Below, piece by piece: positions 37,122-50,461 of a stretch of DNA of 64,000 nucleotides. Both the position numbers and the translations under genes were made by a program. The notes beneath the pieces are model-generated. The model had not been told where the DNA came from, searched no databases, and saw only the letters and a program-made list of their open reading frames with translations. Source of the DNA: Escherichia phage vB_EcoM_EP32a; the sequence record OR544954; one strand, written 5' to 3'. The first letter of the stretch is position 1; each line of letters opens with the position of its first letter.

Positions 37122-38807
<1,686 letters not shown>

Positions 38808-46022: not shown

Positions 46023-47108
<1,086 letters not shown>

Positions 47109-47109
<1 letters not shown>

Positions 47110-47512: not shown

Positions 47513-47788
47513 ATGTTCCCAACTTATTCTGAAATTGTAAAGGTAGTCTTCAGTCAGATTATTGCTAATAATATGTTTGAAGTGCTTGATAATGCAGCCG
47601 AACTCAGAGTTCATGCTCAACTAACTCATGTACTCAATGCTTTGCTCCCAGACCAAGTAGATTCTATTGCTATTACTCTTCTCCCTGGGTCTGCGCACGT
47701 CATAGTGGTATTTGATCTTGATGGTGATTTAGTTATCCAGTGTGATATCAATTTCGGTACACAAAAAATTGAATGCAAAGCAATTTAA
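47513..47788 (+). CDS. hypothetical protein (91 aa)
   Basis: ORF in pseT-cd variable cluster. Confidence 0.45.
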   Translation: MFPTYSEIVKVVFSQIIANNMFEVLDNAAELRVHAQLTHVLNALLPDQVDSIAITLLPGSAHVIVVFDLDGDLVIQCDINFGTQKIECKAI

Positions 47789-47790
47789 TG

Positions 47791-47820
47791 GTTTACAACA
47801 TGGTGGAGTTGTGATACTAT
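47791..47820 (+). promoter_or_regulatory. T4-type early promoter (GTTTAC-N18-TACTAT)
   Basis: -35/-10 pair upstream of ORF 47849. Confidence 0.5.
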
Positions 47821-47848
47821 AACTCTACCAACAAATGAGGAAATAGAA

Positions 47849-48085
47849 ATGCTAAGTGAAAACCCAATTACAGTACACGAATTTCAGATTAAAGTAAAAG
47901 AATTTGCTCAAGCACTCATCAATAAAGTGTCTGAACGTTTCCAAGATGCAACATTACGAGTTATTCAAGAATCTCCACGTTCTTTTCTCATAATCGTTAA
48001 TCCTAAAGATGGTGACCAAATTACTAATCTTAAATTAGGCAGTGATGGTCTTGTTGAAGCAACTCGAGTATATGGAACACTATAA
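47849..48085 (+). CDS. hypothetical protein (78 aa)
   Basis: ORF behind a promoter cassette. Confidence 0.45.
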   Translation: MLSENPITVHEFQIKVKEFAQALINKVSERFQDATLRVIQESPRSFLIIVNPKDGDQITNLKLGSDGLVEATRVYGTL

Positions 48086-48205
48086 TGAGAGCTATCTCAT
48101 TACTATCGAGAATGGTCATAAATCTGAGCACTACCAACTTAGCCTGGCTGGTCCGGTTAAAGGTATTGTTGAATCAGAATCTGTTTATATCTCCTAAGGA
48201 TTGTT

Positions 48206-49198
48206 ATGTTACCTGTCATCAGAAAACTTATTTCTCCAAAAGAACTGGCTGAGATTATTCCTTTGTCGGAAGCTTACGCATCACAAGTGGCTTCTCATCG
48301 CGAACAAGTTAATTCGATTATGAACGGTGAAGACTCACGCAAACTTATTGTTGTAGGTCCTTGTTCAATTCATGACCCTATTGCTGCTGTTGAATACGGC
48401 AAACGTCTGGCTGAACTTCAAACTCGTCTTCCTAATGTTCTGTTAGTGATGCGCGTTTATTTTGAAAAGCCTCGAACTACCGTAGGTTGGAAAGGTCTTG
48501 TAAATGATCCATATCTTGACGGAAGTTTTGATATGAACCACGGTCTTATAGTTGCACGAACATTGTGTCGTAAACTTCTACGTATGGGACTTCCATTAGC
48601 AACTGAAGTATTAGACCCATTCACGATTAAGTATCTTTCTGGTATTTTCTCATGGGTTGCTATTGGCGCCCGTACGACTGAAAGTCAGACACATCGTGAA
48701 ATTGCTTCAGGTCTACCGATGTGCGTAGGCTTCAAGAACGCAACCAATGGTTCTATTAAAGTAGCTACAGACGCGATGTATAGTGCCGCCTGGCCTCATC
48801 GGTATATGGGTATGGACGTCGATGGTACTGTAGGCATTGTTGAAGCTGAAGGTAATCAGAATACGCATATCGTATTGCGTGGCGGGACCAACGGCCCGAA
48901 CTATCATTCTTCTGATATTCAAGAAGCTTCTAACAAAGCAAGGGCAGTAGGTCTGAATCATTATGTAATGGTTGACTGTAGCCATGCAAACGCTGATGGG
49001 CATTATAGCAATCAAATCGGTATTGGTAAAAATTTAGCAGCTAATGATTTGGTCAAAGGAATTATGATAGAATCGTTCCTACATGAAGGAAATCAAAAAA
49101 TTTCTGATAATATGTCCTATGGCGTTTCCGTTACCGATGCGTGCATCAGTTGGGAACAAACTAAAGAGCTGTTAACTTATATTAATAAGGTTCAATAA
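48206..49198 (+). CDS. 3-deoxy-D-arabino-heptulosonate-7-phosphate (DAHP) synthase, class I (AroG/AroF/AroH-like)
   Basis: 330 aa; motifs LIVVGPCSIHDP, MRVYFEKPRTTVGWKGL, IGARTTESQTHRE, VGFKNATNGS, ILRGG, DCSHANA, ESFLHEGNQ, VTDACISWE align with recalled E. coli AroG incl. metal ligands Cys/His/Glu/Asp; SD TAAGGA. Confidence 0.85.
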   Translation: MLPVIRKLISPKELAEIIPLSEAYASQVASHREQVNSIMNGEDSRKLIVVGPCSIHDPIAAVEYGKRLAELQTRLPNVLLVMRVYFEKPRTTVGWKGLVNDPYLDGSFDMNHGLIVARTLCRKLLRMGLPLATEVLDPFTIKYLSGIFSWVAIGARTTESQTHREIASGLPMCVGFKNATNGSIKVATDAMYSAAWPHRYMGMDVDGTVGIVEAEGNQNTHIVLRGGTNGPNYHSSDIQEASNKARAVGLNHYVMVDCSHANADGHYSNQIGIGKNLAANDLVKGIMIESFLHEGNQKISDNMSYGVSVTDACISWEQTKELLTYINKVQ

Positions 49199-49765
49199 TG
49201 AAAGCTAGCACATACCTTCAGATTGCATATCTGATTTCTCAAGAATCAAAATGTTGTTCATGGAAAGTTGGCGCAGTCATTGAAAAAGATGGGCGCATTA
49301 TTTCTACTGGGTATAACGGCTCTCAACTGTTGCGAACATGCATCTGAAAATGGTTGGTTGAAGAATAAACCAATCCCAGTCATCGTTGCTGGGCATAAAG
49401 AAGGCACTACAGCATTTGGACGGGCCGATAATTTTGTTTTGGCTAAAGAACATCGGGCTGCTCATAGTGCATGGTCTGCCAATAACGAAATCCATGCGGA
49501 ACTGAATGCAATTTTGTTTGCAGCTCGTAAAGGTAATTCTATTGAAGGTGCTACGTTGTATACGACACTTTCTCCATGTCCTGATTGCACTAAAGCTATT
49601 ACACAGTCAGGTATTAAAAAGGTTGTATACGCAGAATTATATGACAGATCTCCTGAAAATTGGGCAGACATTCTAAAACAAGCCGGTATTGAAGTAATTC
49701 AGTACTCTCGTAATAATCTTCGTTCTCTGAATTGGGAACAAATCCGAAACTTTTGTGGTGAATAA
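49198..49765 (+). pseudogene. cd: dCMP deaminase (cd) interrupted by a frameshift
   Basis: ATG 49198 gives MKASTYLQIAYLISQESKCCSWKVGAVIEKDGRIISTGYNGS then stop at 49345; deaminase core (NCCEHA...HAELNAIL...SPCPDC) continues in +1 frame 49268-49765; about 14 nt missing relative to recalled T4 cd. Confidence 0.6.
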
Positions 49766-50063: not shown

Positions 50064-50120
50064 TATGCTTTACGAATAGTATGGTATTATTAATCTATCG
50101 TCAAACAACAAGGAAATAAG

Positions 50121-50453: not shown

Positions 50454-50461
50454 TATAAATA
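50454..50461 (+). promoter_or_regulatory. candidate late promoter TATAAATA downstream of gene 31
   Basis: Exact TATAAATA starting 1 nt after gp31 stop; next ORF is 117 nt downstream. Confidence 0.35.

What the first reader, a model, noticed from the sequence alone, without database searches (positions are those of the whole stretch)
48206..49198. Phage-encoded class I DAHP synthase (AroG-like) among T4-type early genes
A 330-aa ORF carries essentially all signature segments of class I-alpha DAHP synthase, the first enzyme of the shikimate pathway: GPCSIHD, KPRTTVGWKG, GARTTESQ, ILRGG, DCSHANA, ESFLHEGNQ, TDACISWE. The Cys, His, Glu and Asp metal ligands and the PEP-binding Lys/Arg are all present. 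It sits between pseT and cd, where T4 has only small cd.x ORFs, and has its own SD. The N-terminal approximately 45 residues are shorter and divergent compared with E. coli AroG; in AroG that region takes part in phenylalanine feedback inhibition, so the phage enzyme may be feedback-insensitive. I do not know whether this gene has been reported in T4-like phages.
Basis: partly seen in the sequence, partly recalled or inferred. Interest (0 to 1): 0.8.

Follow-up and report, generated by a model that had tools for sequence, protein, structure and literature searches.

The report
Phage DAHP synthase with remodelled feedback site
This T4-like coliphage really does carry an intact gene for the first enzyme of aromatic amino-acid synthesis, but the gene is already annotated in over 200 phage genomes; the one fresh point is that its feedback-inhibition pocket has been rebuilt, so it probably ignores the host's off-switch.

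Summary
Window 48206..49198 (+) encodes a 330-aa type I-alpha DAHP synthase (PF00793 E=2.9e-75; TIGR00034 aroFGH 428 bits against a cutoff of 173; AlphaFold model TM 0.95-0.96 to solved enzymes). All metal, PEP and E4P ligands are intact.

It is not new. The gene is at least 99% identical to genes in 118 deposited Mosigvirus genomes and belongs to PHROG 5045. Homologues sit at the same pseT-cd position in 212 phage records, and two papers mention it in passing. I found no experimental study.

The phage proteins form one clade (bootstrap 100/100). They are only about 53% identical to any cellular enzyme, have phage-like GC3, and show dN/dS of about 0.2.

The idea of feedback insensitivity nevertheless gains better support. 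Of only 9 clade-defining substitutions, 6 lie in the allosteric pocket (P150I, Q151K, D155G, L175I, S180P, F209Y; p=2e-7), at or beside known feedback-resistance sites. AroF residues 2-10 are also missing. That remains an inference.

Best reading: an early-expressed auxiliary metabolic gene that pushes carbon into the shikimate pathway regardless of Phe, Tyr or Trp levels.

In passing: the adjacent cd gene carries a unique 14-bp frameshifting deletion.

The parts
47792..47835 (+). T4-type early promoter (GTTTAC…17 nt…TACTAT) overlapping a 13-bp stem-loop; probable start of the cd.2-DAHPS-cd early transcription unit
   Evidence: Promoter scan hit at 47792-47820. The same site is annotated as a T4 early promoter plus terminator in phage SA79RD. 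Sequence. The hairpin folds at -16.9 kcal/mol, z=-4.1, with 0 of 200 shuffles as stable.
47849..48085 (+). cd.2 homologue (78 aa), the gene immediately upstream; in phages lacking DAHPS its stop codon overlaps the cd start
48086..48205 (+). 120-bp leader of the inserted cassette. Its first ~45 nt resemble the 5' end of cd (a remnant target duplication). No sigma-70, MotA-box or late promoter motif and no significant RNA structure.
   Evidence: Junction alignment. 12 of the 15 bases after the shared TAA match; local alignment score 17 against a shuffle mean of 9.6, reached by 8 of 2000 shuffles. Promoter scans. Fold z=-0.59.
48196..48200 (+). Shine-Dalgarno AAGGA, 5 nt before the ATG
   Evidence: Read directly from the sequence.
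48206..49198 (+). Type I-alpha DAHP synthase CDS (330 aa; EC 2.5.1.54 by homology)
48362..48364 (+). Codon for Cys53 (AroG Cys61), a metal ligand. The other metal ligands are His260 (48983-48985), Glu289 (49070-49072) and Asp311 (49136-49138).
   Evidence: Invariant in 25/25 phage-clade and 98/98 cellular sequences.
48626..48643 (+). Remodelled allosteric-pocket segment: Ile141-Lys142 (AroG Pro150-Gln151) through Gly146 (AroG Asp155)
   Evidence: Phage clade I 24/25, K 24/25, G 24/25; cellular P 81/98, Q 87/98, D 97/98. AroG P150L and AroF Q152 replacements give feedback resistance.
48716..48718 (+). Codon for Pro171 (AroG Ser180 / AroF Ser181, the residue that contacts the inhibitor)
   Evidence: Phage clade P 25/25; cellular S 87/98. 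AroG S180F is feedback-resistant.
49196..49240 (+). Right junction of the cassette: the DAHPS stop overlaps the cd start (TAATG). This is the genuine cd 5' end that the left-junction remnant resembles.
49198..49765 (+). cd (dCMP deaminase), the downstream gene of the same unit; in this window it is frameshifted by a 14-bp deletion after 49322

Best explanation
The ORF is a catalytically competent type I-alpha DAHP synthase, which condenses PEP and erythrose-4-phosphate into DAHP. It is a long-standing accessory gene of a large clade of T4-like phages of Enterobacterales. It appears to be transcribed before DNA replication as part of the cd.2-DAHPS-cd unit, from a T4-type early promoter and possibly a middle promoter inside pseT. 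Its regulatory pocket has been rebuilt at the residues that bind Phe or Tyr in the host enzymes, and the N-terminal segment that closes that pocket is missing. The enzyme is therefore predicted to be insensitive to aromatic amino-acid feedback. In an infected cell it would keep carbon flowing into the host's shikimate pathway (host AroB to AroC) when the host isozymes are inhibited or repressed and cannot be re-made after host shut-off. That would sustain aromatic amino acids and/or chorismate-derived cofactors such as folate and quinones for phage production. SHOWN: family membership, intact active site, fold, purifying selection, monophyly, conserved position, presence/absence as a cassette, and clade-wide pocket substitutions. 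INFERRED: enzymatic activity, feedback insensitivity, timing of expression, physiological benefit, and which downstream product matters.
For: Family: PF00793 E=2.9e-75; TIGR00034 aroFGH equivalog 428.5 bits (cutoff 173.2) and PRK12755 455.9 bits (cutoff 343); PHROG 5045, category 'moron, auxiliary metabolic gene and host takeover'. Active site: C61, H268, E302, D326, R92, K97, R99, R165, K186 and R234 (AroG numbering) are conserved in 25/25 phage-clade sequences. Fold: pLDDT 94.3, pTM 0.93, beta6a/beta6b hairpin retained; TM 0.95-0.96 and rmsd 1.3 A to NmeDAH7PS and AroG. Selection: dN/dS 0.18-0.22 between genera. Old resident: GC3 0.30, about 53% identity to the nearest cellular protein, clade bootstrap 100/100. 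Same pseT-cd position in Mosigvirus, Marfavirus, Winklervirus and Bragavirus. Feedback site: only 9 clade-defining substitutions in 330 positions, 6 of them in the pre-defined 15-residue pocket (hypergeometric p=2.3e-7) and 2 more adjacent. P150I, Q151K, D155G and S180P fall at positions where AroG P150L and S180F and AroF Q152 replacements abolish inhibition, and where Q151/Q152 and S180/S181 contact the inhibitor (PMC9529685; PMC5791370). AroF residues 2-10 are absent, and deleting Ile11 alone desensitises AroF. Residues before the catalytic Cys number 48-52 in phage proteins against at least 58 in all 98 cellular ones. Expression: early promoter/stem-loop at 47792-47835; MotA-box-like site at 46802; no late-promoter motif nearby.
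Against: There is no biochemical or genetic data for any phage DAHPS in the searchable literature. Feedback insensitivity is inferred from analogy with point mutants: the natural substitutions are Ile, Lys and Pro, whereas the tested mutants were Leu, Ile/Ala and Phe. The pocket is more conserved within the phage clade than the protein average (0.95 vs 0.74, p=5e-5). That argues against a simply dead site and leaves room for a different ligand. D146, L179, V221 and the AroF-type P148 and G211 equivalents are retained. The gene is dispensable: it is absent from RB69, mar008P4 and ECO111 5-P. The promoter assignment comes from consensus scans, whose overall hit count was at chance level. The 'cellular' comparison set includes unclassified metagenome proteins, and the tree is neighbour-joining only.
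Confidence: 0.62

Rival explanations
1. It is an ordinary Tyr-sensitive AroF-type enzyme, as several GenBank records label it, which simply adds DAHPS capacity that remains under aromatic amino-acid feedback.
For: The closest E. coli isozyme and PDB entry is AroF (51% identity; 6agm E=5.7e-104). AroF-type residues P148 (phage P138) and the Gly at AroG S211 (phage G202) are kept, as are D146, L179 and V221. The beta6a/beta6b regulatory hairpin is retained. Depositors annotate it 'aroF, Tyr-sensitive'.
Against: The Q152 equivalent is Lys, the S181 equivalent Pro, the P151 equivalent Ile and the D156 equivalent Gly, in 24-25 of 25 clade members. AroF residues 2-10 are missing. Replacing Q152 or deleting Ile11 alone makes AroF Tyr-insensitive. 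The 'Tyr-sensitive' labels are automatic name transfers, not experiments.
Confidence: 0.12
2. The pocket has been re-targeted, not inactivated. The fixed Ile-Lys…Gly…Pro…Tyr set binds a different small molecule or a protein partner, so DAHP synthesis responds to an infection-specific signal.
For: The pocket positions are significantly more conserved within the phage clade than the rest of the protein (0.949 vs 0.740; 5e-5 of random 15-column sets reach this) across sequences as low as 57% identical. A new positive charge (Lys/Arg142) is fixed in 25/25. The moderately supported sister group (75/100) is a Pseudomonas-type subgroup that also has a non-canonical pocket, QPAGDPHG.
Against: No candidate ligand or partner is known. 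High conservation could equally reflect a structural role at the dimer/tetramer interface formed by this region. Nothing in the neighbourhood suggests a partner gene: the ORFs between DAHPS and cd differ between genera.
Confidence: 0.15
3. The protein has drifted to a different aldolase chemistry within the PF00793 family, for example KDO8P-synthase-like use of arabinose-5-phosphate, perhaps linked to sugar or DNA modification.
For: PF00793 also covers KDO8P synthases. The phiC120 genome paper loosely links the domain to lipopolysaccharide synthesis.
Against: It matches the DAHPS-specific equivalog TIGR00034 at 428 bits against a cutoff of 173. It keeps the DAHPS-type KPRTT loop (KDO8PS has KANRS, from my own knowledge) and all four metal ligands. 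All top structural matches are DAHPS. RB69, a Mosigvirus, lacks the gene, so it cannot be a core DNA-modification function of the genus.
Confidence: 0.03
4. It is a recently captured host gene or a decaying passenger with no role for the phage.
For: It is accessory: absent from some close relatives, and flanked by a short repeat that would allow loss.
Against: It is only 44-51% identical to the host AroF/G/H. GC3 is 0.30, like neighbouring phage genes. The clade is monophyletic across at least 6 host genera. dN/dS is about 0.2 with no stop codons in 9 sequences examined. It is 99.3-99.6% conserved within Mosigvirus while its neighbours are mosaic.
Confidence: 0.02

Closest known systems
E. coli AroF (Tyr-sensitive DAHP synthase; PDB 6AGM/6AGL)
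   Same: Same family, fold and chemistry. 51% identity over the full length. All metal and substrate ligands are identical, and the AroF-type residues Pro148 and the pocket Gly are retained.
   Different: 26 residues shorter. It lacks AroF residues 2-10 and has two internal deletions (5 aa and 3 aa) near the C-terminal third. Q152 is Lys, S181 is Pro, P151 is Ile and D156 is Gly, so Tyr sensitivity is unlikely.
E. coli AroG (Phe-sensitive; PDB 1KFL/1QR7) and its engineered feedback-resistant alleles (P150L, S180F, D146N and others)
   Same: 48% identity; model TM 0.95-0.96 and rmsd 1.3-1.5 A. The phage enzyme naturally carries substitutions at P150, Q151 and S180, the positions exploited in engineered fbr alleles.
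   Different: It falls below the AroG equivalog cutoff (365 vs 568 bits). The substituting residues differ from the tested mutants. D146 is retained.
PHROG 5045 / annotated DAHP synthases of T4-like phages (Mosigvirus such as Shf125875, JS09 and phiC120; also Kanagawavirus, Winklervirus, Marfavirus and Bragavirus)
   Same: The window's gene is a member: E=5.7e-182 to the PHROG; 99.6% nucleotide identity to Shf125875, phiC120, F2 and others; same pseT-cd position.
   Different: Only three private amino-acid differences (I5, R6 and S44, where five relatives have V, G and P). The neighbouring cd gene is frameshifted only in this window.
Pseudomonas-type cellular type I-alpha DAHPS subgroup (P0040, P0053, P0086 and others)
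   Same: Nearest cellular branch in the NJ tree (75/100). It also has Pro at AroG position 180 and lacks Gln151 and Pro150.
   Different: Only about 53% identical. It has a long N-terminal extension (356-364 aa in total), keeps Asp155, and has a different pocket signature (QPAGDPHG vs DPIKGPYG).

Membership tests
DAHP synthase type I (Pfam PF00793 DAHP_synth_1) | Significant match to the family HMM above the gathering cutoff | tested here: met
   253.1 bits against a cutoff of 25.5, E=2.9e-75, residues 36-323 covering profile positions 8-269 of 270.
Type I-alpha DAHP synthase, AroF/G/H (NCBIfam TIGR00034 equivalog) | Score above the curated equivalog cutoff over the full length | tested here: met
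   428.5 bits against a cutoff of 173.2; residues 5-327 match profile positions 8-335 of 342.
Type I-alpha DAHP synthase, AroF/G/H | Metal ligands Cys61, His268, Glu302, Asp326 (AroG numbering) | tested here: met
   They correspond to C53, H260, E289 and D311, invariant in 25/25 phage-clade and 98/98 cellular sequences.
Type I-alpha DAHP synthase, AroF/G/H | PEP/E4P-binding residues Arg92, Lys97, Arg99 (KPRTT loop), Arg165, Lys186, Arg234 | tested here: met
   They correspond to R83, K88, R90, R156, K177 and R225, all invariant.
Type I-alpha DAHP synthase, AroF/G/H | (beta/alpha)8 barrel decorated with the beta6a/beta6b hairpin and an N-terminal extension | tested here: met
   AF2 model pLDDT 94.3; strands at 198-203 and 209-214 (the hairpin); N-terminal helices at 11-17 and 22-39. 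TM 0.95-0.96 to NmeDAH7PS and AroG. The extreme N-terminal segment (AroF 2-10) is absent.
Type I-alpha DAHP synthase, AroF/G/H | Canonical aromatic amino-acid inhibitor site (AroG Pro150, Gln151, Asp155, Ser180, Phe209, plus N-terminal residues 6-10) | tested here: not met
   The phage has Ile141, Lys142, Gly146, Pro171 and Tyr200, and the N-terminal residues are deleted, in 24-25 of 25 clade members. This bears on regulation, not on membership as a catalyst.
Type I-alpha DAHP synthase, AroF/G/H | DAHP synthase activity (PEP + E4P gives DAHP + Pi) | not testable with these tools
   Needs an enzyme assay or complementation of an aroF aroG aroH mutant.
AroG (Phe-sensitive) equivalog NF006723 / AroH (Trp-sensitive) subfamily NF009396 | Score above the isozyme-specific curated cutoff | tested here: not met
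   AroG model 365.3 bits (cutoff 568); AroH model 386.7 bits (cutoff 463). It should not be filed as AroG or AroH.
PHROG 5045 (phage phospho-2-dehydro-3-deoxyheptonate aldolase) | Full-length match to the phage family profile | tested here: met
   E=5.7e-182, 605 bits, residues 1-330 against profile positions 8-337 of 341.
T4-type early (pre-replicative) gene | Located downstream of an early (sigma-70-like GTTTAC…TAnnnT) or MotA-dependent middle promoter, with no late promoter | tested here: inconclusive
   An early-promoter-like site with a stem-loop lies at 47792-47835, upstream of cd.2. A MotA-box-like site lies at 46802. No TATAAATA occurs between 35318 and 50454 on the + strand. These are consensus matches only, with no transcript data.

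The most novel reading that the evidence does not exclude
The allosteric pocket of the phage-clade DAHP synthases is neither ancestral nor dead. It is a virus-specific, strongly conserved rebuild (Ile-Lys…Gly…Pro…Tyr plus a truncated N-terminus) that either locks the enzyme permanently on or responds to a new, infection-relevant effector. Under this reading, T4-like phages carry a naturally evolved device for overriding, or re-wiring, the host's control point for aromatic biosynthesis.
Probability: 0.15. Interest if true: 0.6.

Novelty: already known. Interest (0 to 1): 0.3.

Why it matters
The existence of the gene does not change what is known. It is a catalogued phage auxiliary metabolic gene, present and named in more than 200 public genomes. 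What could matter is the untested biochemistry. If the phage-clade enzyme is naturally feedback-insensitive, it would be a concrete case of a lytic coliphage overriding a classic allosteric control point of host amino-acid metabolism. It would also be a ready-made, evolution-optimised feedback-resistant DAHP synthase for aromatic-compound bioproduction, where engineered AroG and AroF fbr alleles are used now. A practical point: the 'Tyr-sensitive aroF' labels in GenBank phage records are probably wrong.

Tried and rejected
1. A promoter of its own in the 120-bp leader. The sigma-70 scan, the MotA-box pattern and the late-promoter pattern all found nothing between 48086 and 48205, so the gene has its own SD but probably not its own promoter.

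2. A regulatory RNA structure in the leader. The fold has z=-0.59, not significant.

3. A terminator after the gene. There is none; the stop codon overlaps the cd start.

4. Recent capture from the E. coli host. Rejected: 44-51% identity to AroF/G/H, GC3 0.30, and separate deep clades in the tree.

5. Donor lineage. It is not resolved beyond a 75/100 NJ affinity to a Pseudomonas-type subgroup, and the nearest cellular hits (50-55%) span Pseudomonadota, Planctomycetota and Kiritimatiellota-like MAGs.

6. A recent sweep of the cassette among Mosigviruses. The gene is 99.3-99.6% identical between phages, but so are gp31, cd.4 and ORF231c, so I cannot separate a sweep from strong constraint.

7. 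Literature. Nine searches found no experimental work on a phage DAHPS, only one-sentence mentions. The library covers open-access papers only.

8. Minus-strand ORFs inside the gene (48713..49015 and 48457..48624). I found no support for them and treat them as shadows of the coding frame.

9. The AlphaFold output gives no coordinates, so pocket geometry (for example whether Lys142 fills the inhibitor site) could not be inspected.
Full report
OBSERVATION. The ORF is exactly as described: ATG at 48206, stop ending at 49198, + strand, 330 aa. An AAGGA Shine-Dalgarno sequence lies at 48196-48200, 5 nt before the ATG. Six of the seven quoted motifs are present verbatim; 'ILRGG' is actually VLRGG. 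The gene follows pseT (46210..47109) and four small ORFs (cd.4, ORF227c, cd.3, cd.2). Its stop codon overlaps the start of cd (TAATG at 49196-49200).

WHAT IT IS. The protein matches Pfam PF00793 (E=2.9e-75, 253 bits against a cutoff of 25.5). It matches the NCBIfam aroFGH equivalog TIGR00034 (428.5 bits, cutoff 173.2) and the subfamily PRK12755 (455.9 bits, cutoff 343). It falls below the isozyme-specific cutoffs for AroG (365 vs 568) and AroH (387 vs 463). Against solved structures the best sequence match is E. coli AroF (6agm, E=5.7e-104), followed by N. meningitidis DAH7PS and then AroG. Aligned with the three E. coli isozymes it is 48% (AroG), 51% (AroF) and 44% (AroH) identical.

All four metal ligands are invariant (C53, H260, E289, D311, equivalent to AroG C61, H268, E302, D326). 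So are the PEP/E4P-binding residues (R83, K88, R90, R156, K177, R225). An AlphaFold2 model built on a 60-sequence alignment is confident (pLDDT 94.3, pTM 0.93). It retains the beta6a/beta6b hairpin and superposes on NmeDAH7PS and AroG with TM 0.95-0.96 and rmsd about 1.3 A. Membership in the type I-alpha DAHP synthases is therefore met on every computable criterion.

IS IT NEW? No. A megablast of the gene finds 145 phage records, 118 of them at least 99% identical. They are Mosigvirus phages of E. coli and Shigella such as Shf125875, JS09, phiC120, F2 and the O157 typing phages. Most are already annotated 'phospho-2-dehydro-3-deoxyheptonate aldolase', 'AroG', 'aroF' or 'DAHP synthase I alpha'. 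The protein belongs to PHROG 5045, whose category is 'moron, auxiliary metabolic gene and host takeover' (E=5.7e-182).

tblastn finds homologues in 212 phage records. These include T4-like phages of Enterobacter and Edwardsiella (76%), Klebsiella, Serratia and Erwinia (66-69%) and Proteus (58%). More distant copies occur in an Aeromonas phage and in gut-virome contigs (35-37%). Two papers mention the gene in a sentence each: the phiC120 genome paper (PMC8022965), and a Klebsiella phage survey that lists it as an amino-acid AMG and hypothesises that it helps make aromatic amino acids (PMC11845039). Nine full-text searches found no experimental characterisation.

EVOLUTIONARY ANATOMY. The 25 phage-type sequences recovered from a 5.8-billion-protein search form one clade (NJ bootstrap 100/100). 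The nearest cellular proteins are only about 50-55% identical and come from mixed phyla. A Pseudomonas-type subgroup is sister with moderate support (75/100). The gene's GC (0.41) and GC3 (0.30) resemble its phage neighbours. dN/dS between genera is 0.18-0.22, with dS saturated, so the true ratio is probably lower. The position pseT - small ORFs - DAHPS - (0-2 ORFs) - cd - 31.1 - 31 - rIII is kept in Mosigvirus, Marfavirus, Winklervirus and Bragavirus. This is an old gene under purifying selection in these phages, not a recent capture from the host.

The gene is nevertheless accessory. RB69 lacks it: the RB69 cd.2 and cd proteins have consecutive accession numbers in the notes. Mosigvirus record LR027386.1 (mar008P4) and ECO111 5-P also lack it, and in the annotated mar008P4 record the cd.2 stop overlaps the cd start directly. 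The indel in the window is 48086..49197 (1112 bp). Its left edge carries a degenerate copy of the cd 5' end: 12 of the 15 bases after the shared TAA match, and the local alignment extends about 45 nt and is matched by only 8 of 2000 shuffles. That is the footprint expected of cassette gain or loss by short-homology recombination. Within Mosigvirus the gene is 99.3-99.6% identical while neighbours are mosaic (cd.3 about 71%, rIII 86-93%).

EXPRESSION CONTEXT. There is no promoter-like or terminator-like signal in the 120-bp leader, and it has no significant RNA structure. Upstream of cd.2, at 47792-47835, lies a T4-type early promoter (GTTTAC, 17 nt, TACTAT) overlapping a 13-bp stem-loop (-16.9 kcal/mol, z=-4.1). 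The same site is annotated as an early promoter and terminator in phage SA79RD. A MotA-box-like site lies inside pseT at 46802; such sites are enriched in the window, 13 against 3.8 expected. The nearest late-promoter motif on the + strand is downstream, at 50454. I infer pre-replicative transcription as a cd.2-DAHPS-cd unit. This is not shown.

THE FEEDBACK QUESTION. In fact the protein is about 9 residues shorter: phage L2 aligns with AroF I11. The region from residue 8 onward aligns without gaps. The shortening is real and specific to the clade: 48-52 residues precede the catalytic Cys in all 25 phage proteins, against at least 58 (median 63) in all 98 cellular ones.

The stronger evidence is in the pocket. 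An unbiased scan asked for positions where at least 90% of phage proteins share one residue and at least 80% of cellular proteins share a different one. It returns only 9 of 330 positions. Six are in a pre-defined list of 15 allosteric-pocket residues (hypergeometric p=2.3e-7), and two more (AroG 156 and 223) are adjacent. The six are P150 to I, Q151 to K, D155 to G, L175 to I, S180 to P and F209 to Y.

According to PMC9529685:
- AroG P150L is completely Phe-resistant.
- S180F, L175D and F209A/S are also resistant.
- Q151 (AroG) / Q152 (AroF) and S180/S181 contact the inhibitor's main chain.
- D155 forms a stabilising salt bridge.

According to PMC5791370, AroF becomes Tyr-insensitive on replacement of P148 or Q152 or on deletion of Ile11. 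The phage enzyme thus combines, naturally and across the whole clade, changes at four or five sites where a single change suffices in the host enzymes. I consider insensitivity to Phe, Tyr and Trp the most likely outcome, at roughly 0.6-0.7 given that the protein is active, but it is an inference by analogy.

One observation complicates the picture. The pocket columns are more conserved within the phage clade (mean majority fraction 0.949) than the protein as a whole (0.740; p=5e-5). A merely abandoned site should drift. Either these residues serve a structural role at the oligomer interface and lock an active conformation, or the site now binds something else. I carry that second reading as the novel case, at about 0.15.

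MECHANISM PROPOSED. Early after infection the phage supplies a DAHP synthase that aromatic amino acids cannot switch off. The host's own AroG, AroF and AroH are allosterically inhibited and transcriptionally repressed in aromatic-replete conditions (TyrR/TrpR; established knowledge). They cannot be re-made once a T4-type phage has shut down host transcription; alc lies 4 kb upstream in this window. The phage enzyme would keep PEP and E4P flowing into the host's AroB-to-AroC enzymes. I cannot tell from sequence whether the benefit lies in aromatic amino acids for virion proteins or in chorismate-derived cofactors such as folate for the dTMP/hm-dCMP pathway, whose genes surround this locus.

RIVALS. 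The alternatives I considered, with my confidence in each:
- A regulated AroF-like enzyme: 0.12.
- A re-targeted allosteric site: 0.15.
- A different aldolase chemistry: 0.03.
- A decaying passenger gene: 0.02.
Each is set out with its tests in the structured fields.

VERDICT. Novelty class: already known. Interest is about 0.3, which rests on the sharp, cheaply testable prediction of a natural feedback-resistant viral DAHP synthase.

CAVEATS. The tree is neighbour-joining only. The cellular comparison set comes from the top 120 of 8000 scored hits and includes unnamed metagenome proteins. The alignment of the first ~10 residues is inherently uncertain. The literature library is restricted to open-access papers. 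The role of AroG Asp6/Asp7 in binding Phe and the KPRTT-versus-KANRS substrate-specificity motif come from my own knowledge and were not checked here.

Noticed in passing
window 49198..49765 (deletion between 49322 and 49323): The cd (dCMP deaminase) gene just downstream lacks 14 bp (ACCTGCAGGTGGTA) relative to Shf125875. The loss removes the perfect 12-bp palindrome CACCTGCAGGTG and shifts the frame, leaving a 49-aa N-terminal ORF and a 165-aa ORF that holds the deaminase motifs. None of 76 matching phage records shares the deletion. It is either a genuine cd-defective phage or an assembly error at a palindrome.
   Followed up: partly
window 47792..47835: A T4-type early promoter (GTTTAC…TACTAT) overlaps a 13-bp perfect stem-loop (z=-4.1) between cd.3 and cd.2. 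It resembles the 'promoter-early stem-loop' elements proposed (from my memory) to mediate modular shuffling in T4-type genomes. It sits next to the highly mosaic cd.3 gene.
   Followed up: partly
window 47513..47788 (cd.3): cd.3 is 98.6% identical to Shf125875 but only 70-72% identical to phiC120, OLB35, ST2 and LF82-2, while flanking genes are 94-100% identical. This is an allelic replacement of a single small ORF within the genus.
   Followed up: no
L005 (LR027386.1) versus OZ035759.1: Two records carry the name mar005P1 but differ at this locus. LR027386.1 (strain mar008P4, 167,773 bp) lacks the DAHPS cassette. OZ035759.1 'Mosigvirus mar005p1' (168,962 bp) has it at 98.5% protein identity. 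The 1,189-bp length difference is about the size of the cassette.
   Followed up: no
whole window, e.g. 46802..46826, 50066..50090, 37871..37894: MotA-box-type middle-promoter motifs (TGCTTnA, 11-13 nt, TAnnnT) occur 13 times against 3.8 expected, and 0 of 100 shuffles reach 13. This fits a T4-like middle-transcription programme in this phage.
   Followed up: no
proteins P0037, P0040, P0043, P0053, P0054, P0075, P0086, P0087, P0094, P0105, P0119: A Pseudomonas-type cellular subgroup of type I-alpha DAHP synthases has its own non-canonical pocket signature (AroG D146Q, P150A, Q151G, S180P, F209H) and a long N-terminal extension. It is the nearest cellular branch to the phage clade (75/100). Its regulation may also be atypical.
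   Followed up: partly
GenBank records seen: Several annotation problems appear in public records. The phage DAHPS is labelled 'Tyr-sensitive aroF'. cd is labelled 'ribD riboflavin biosynthesis protein' or 'tRNA-specific adenosine deaminase'. gp31.1 is labelled 'tail fiber protein'. The 171-kb T4-like phage ST2 (OM982647.1) is filed under Guernseyvirinae/Kagunavirus. P0001, from a 170,875-bp contig, is named as an E. coli protein.
   Followed up: no
window 48042..48197: A 51-aa GTG-started ORF spans the end of cd.2 and the leader, ending 9 nt before the DAHPS start. Comparable small ORFs are annotated as hypothetical proteins in ST2 and LF82-2. I did not test whether it is coding.
   Followed up: no
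L010 (Aeromonas phage HJ05, 3001-3975) and MT837410.1 / MT838377.1: Distant DAHPS homologues (35-37% identity) occur in a 79-kb, non-T4-like Aeromonas phage and in human-gut 'Bacteriophage sp.' contigs. This suggests that other phage groups acquired the enzyme independently.
   Followed up: no
window 48218..48223 and 48335..48337 (DAHPS codons 5, 6 and 44): This window's protein differs from five sequenced relatives at three N-terminal positions: it has I5, R6 and S44 where they have V, G and P. Three of its four nucleotide differences from Shf125875 are therefore non-synonymous, and all lie in the regulatory N-terminal region.
   Followed up: no
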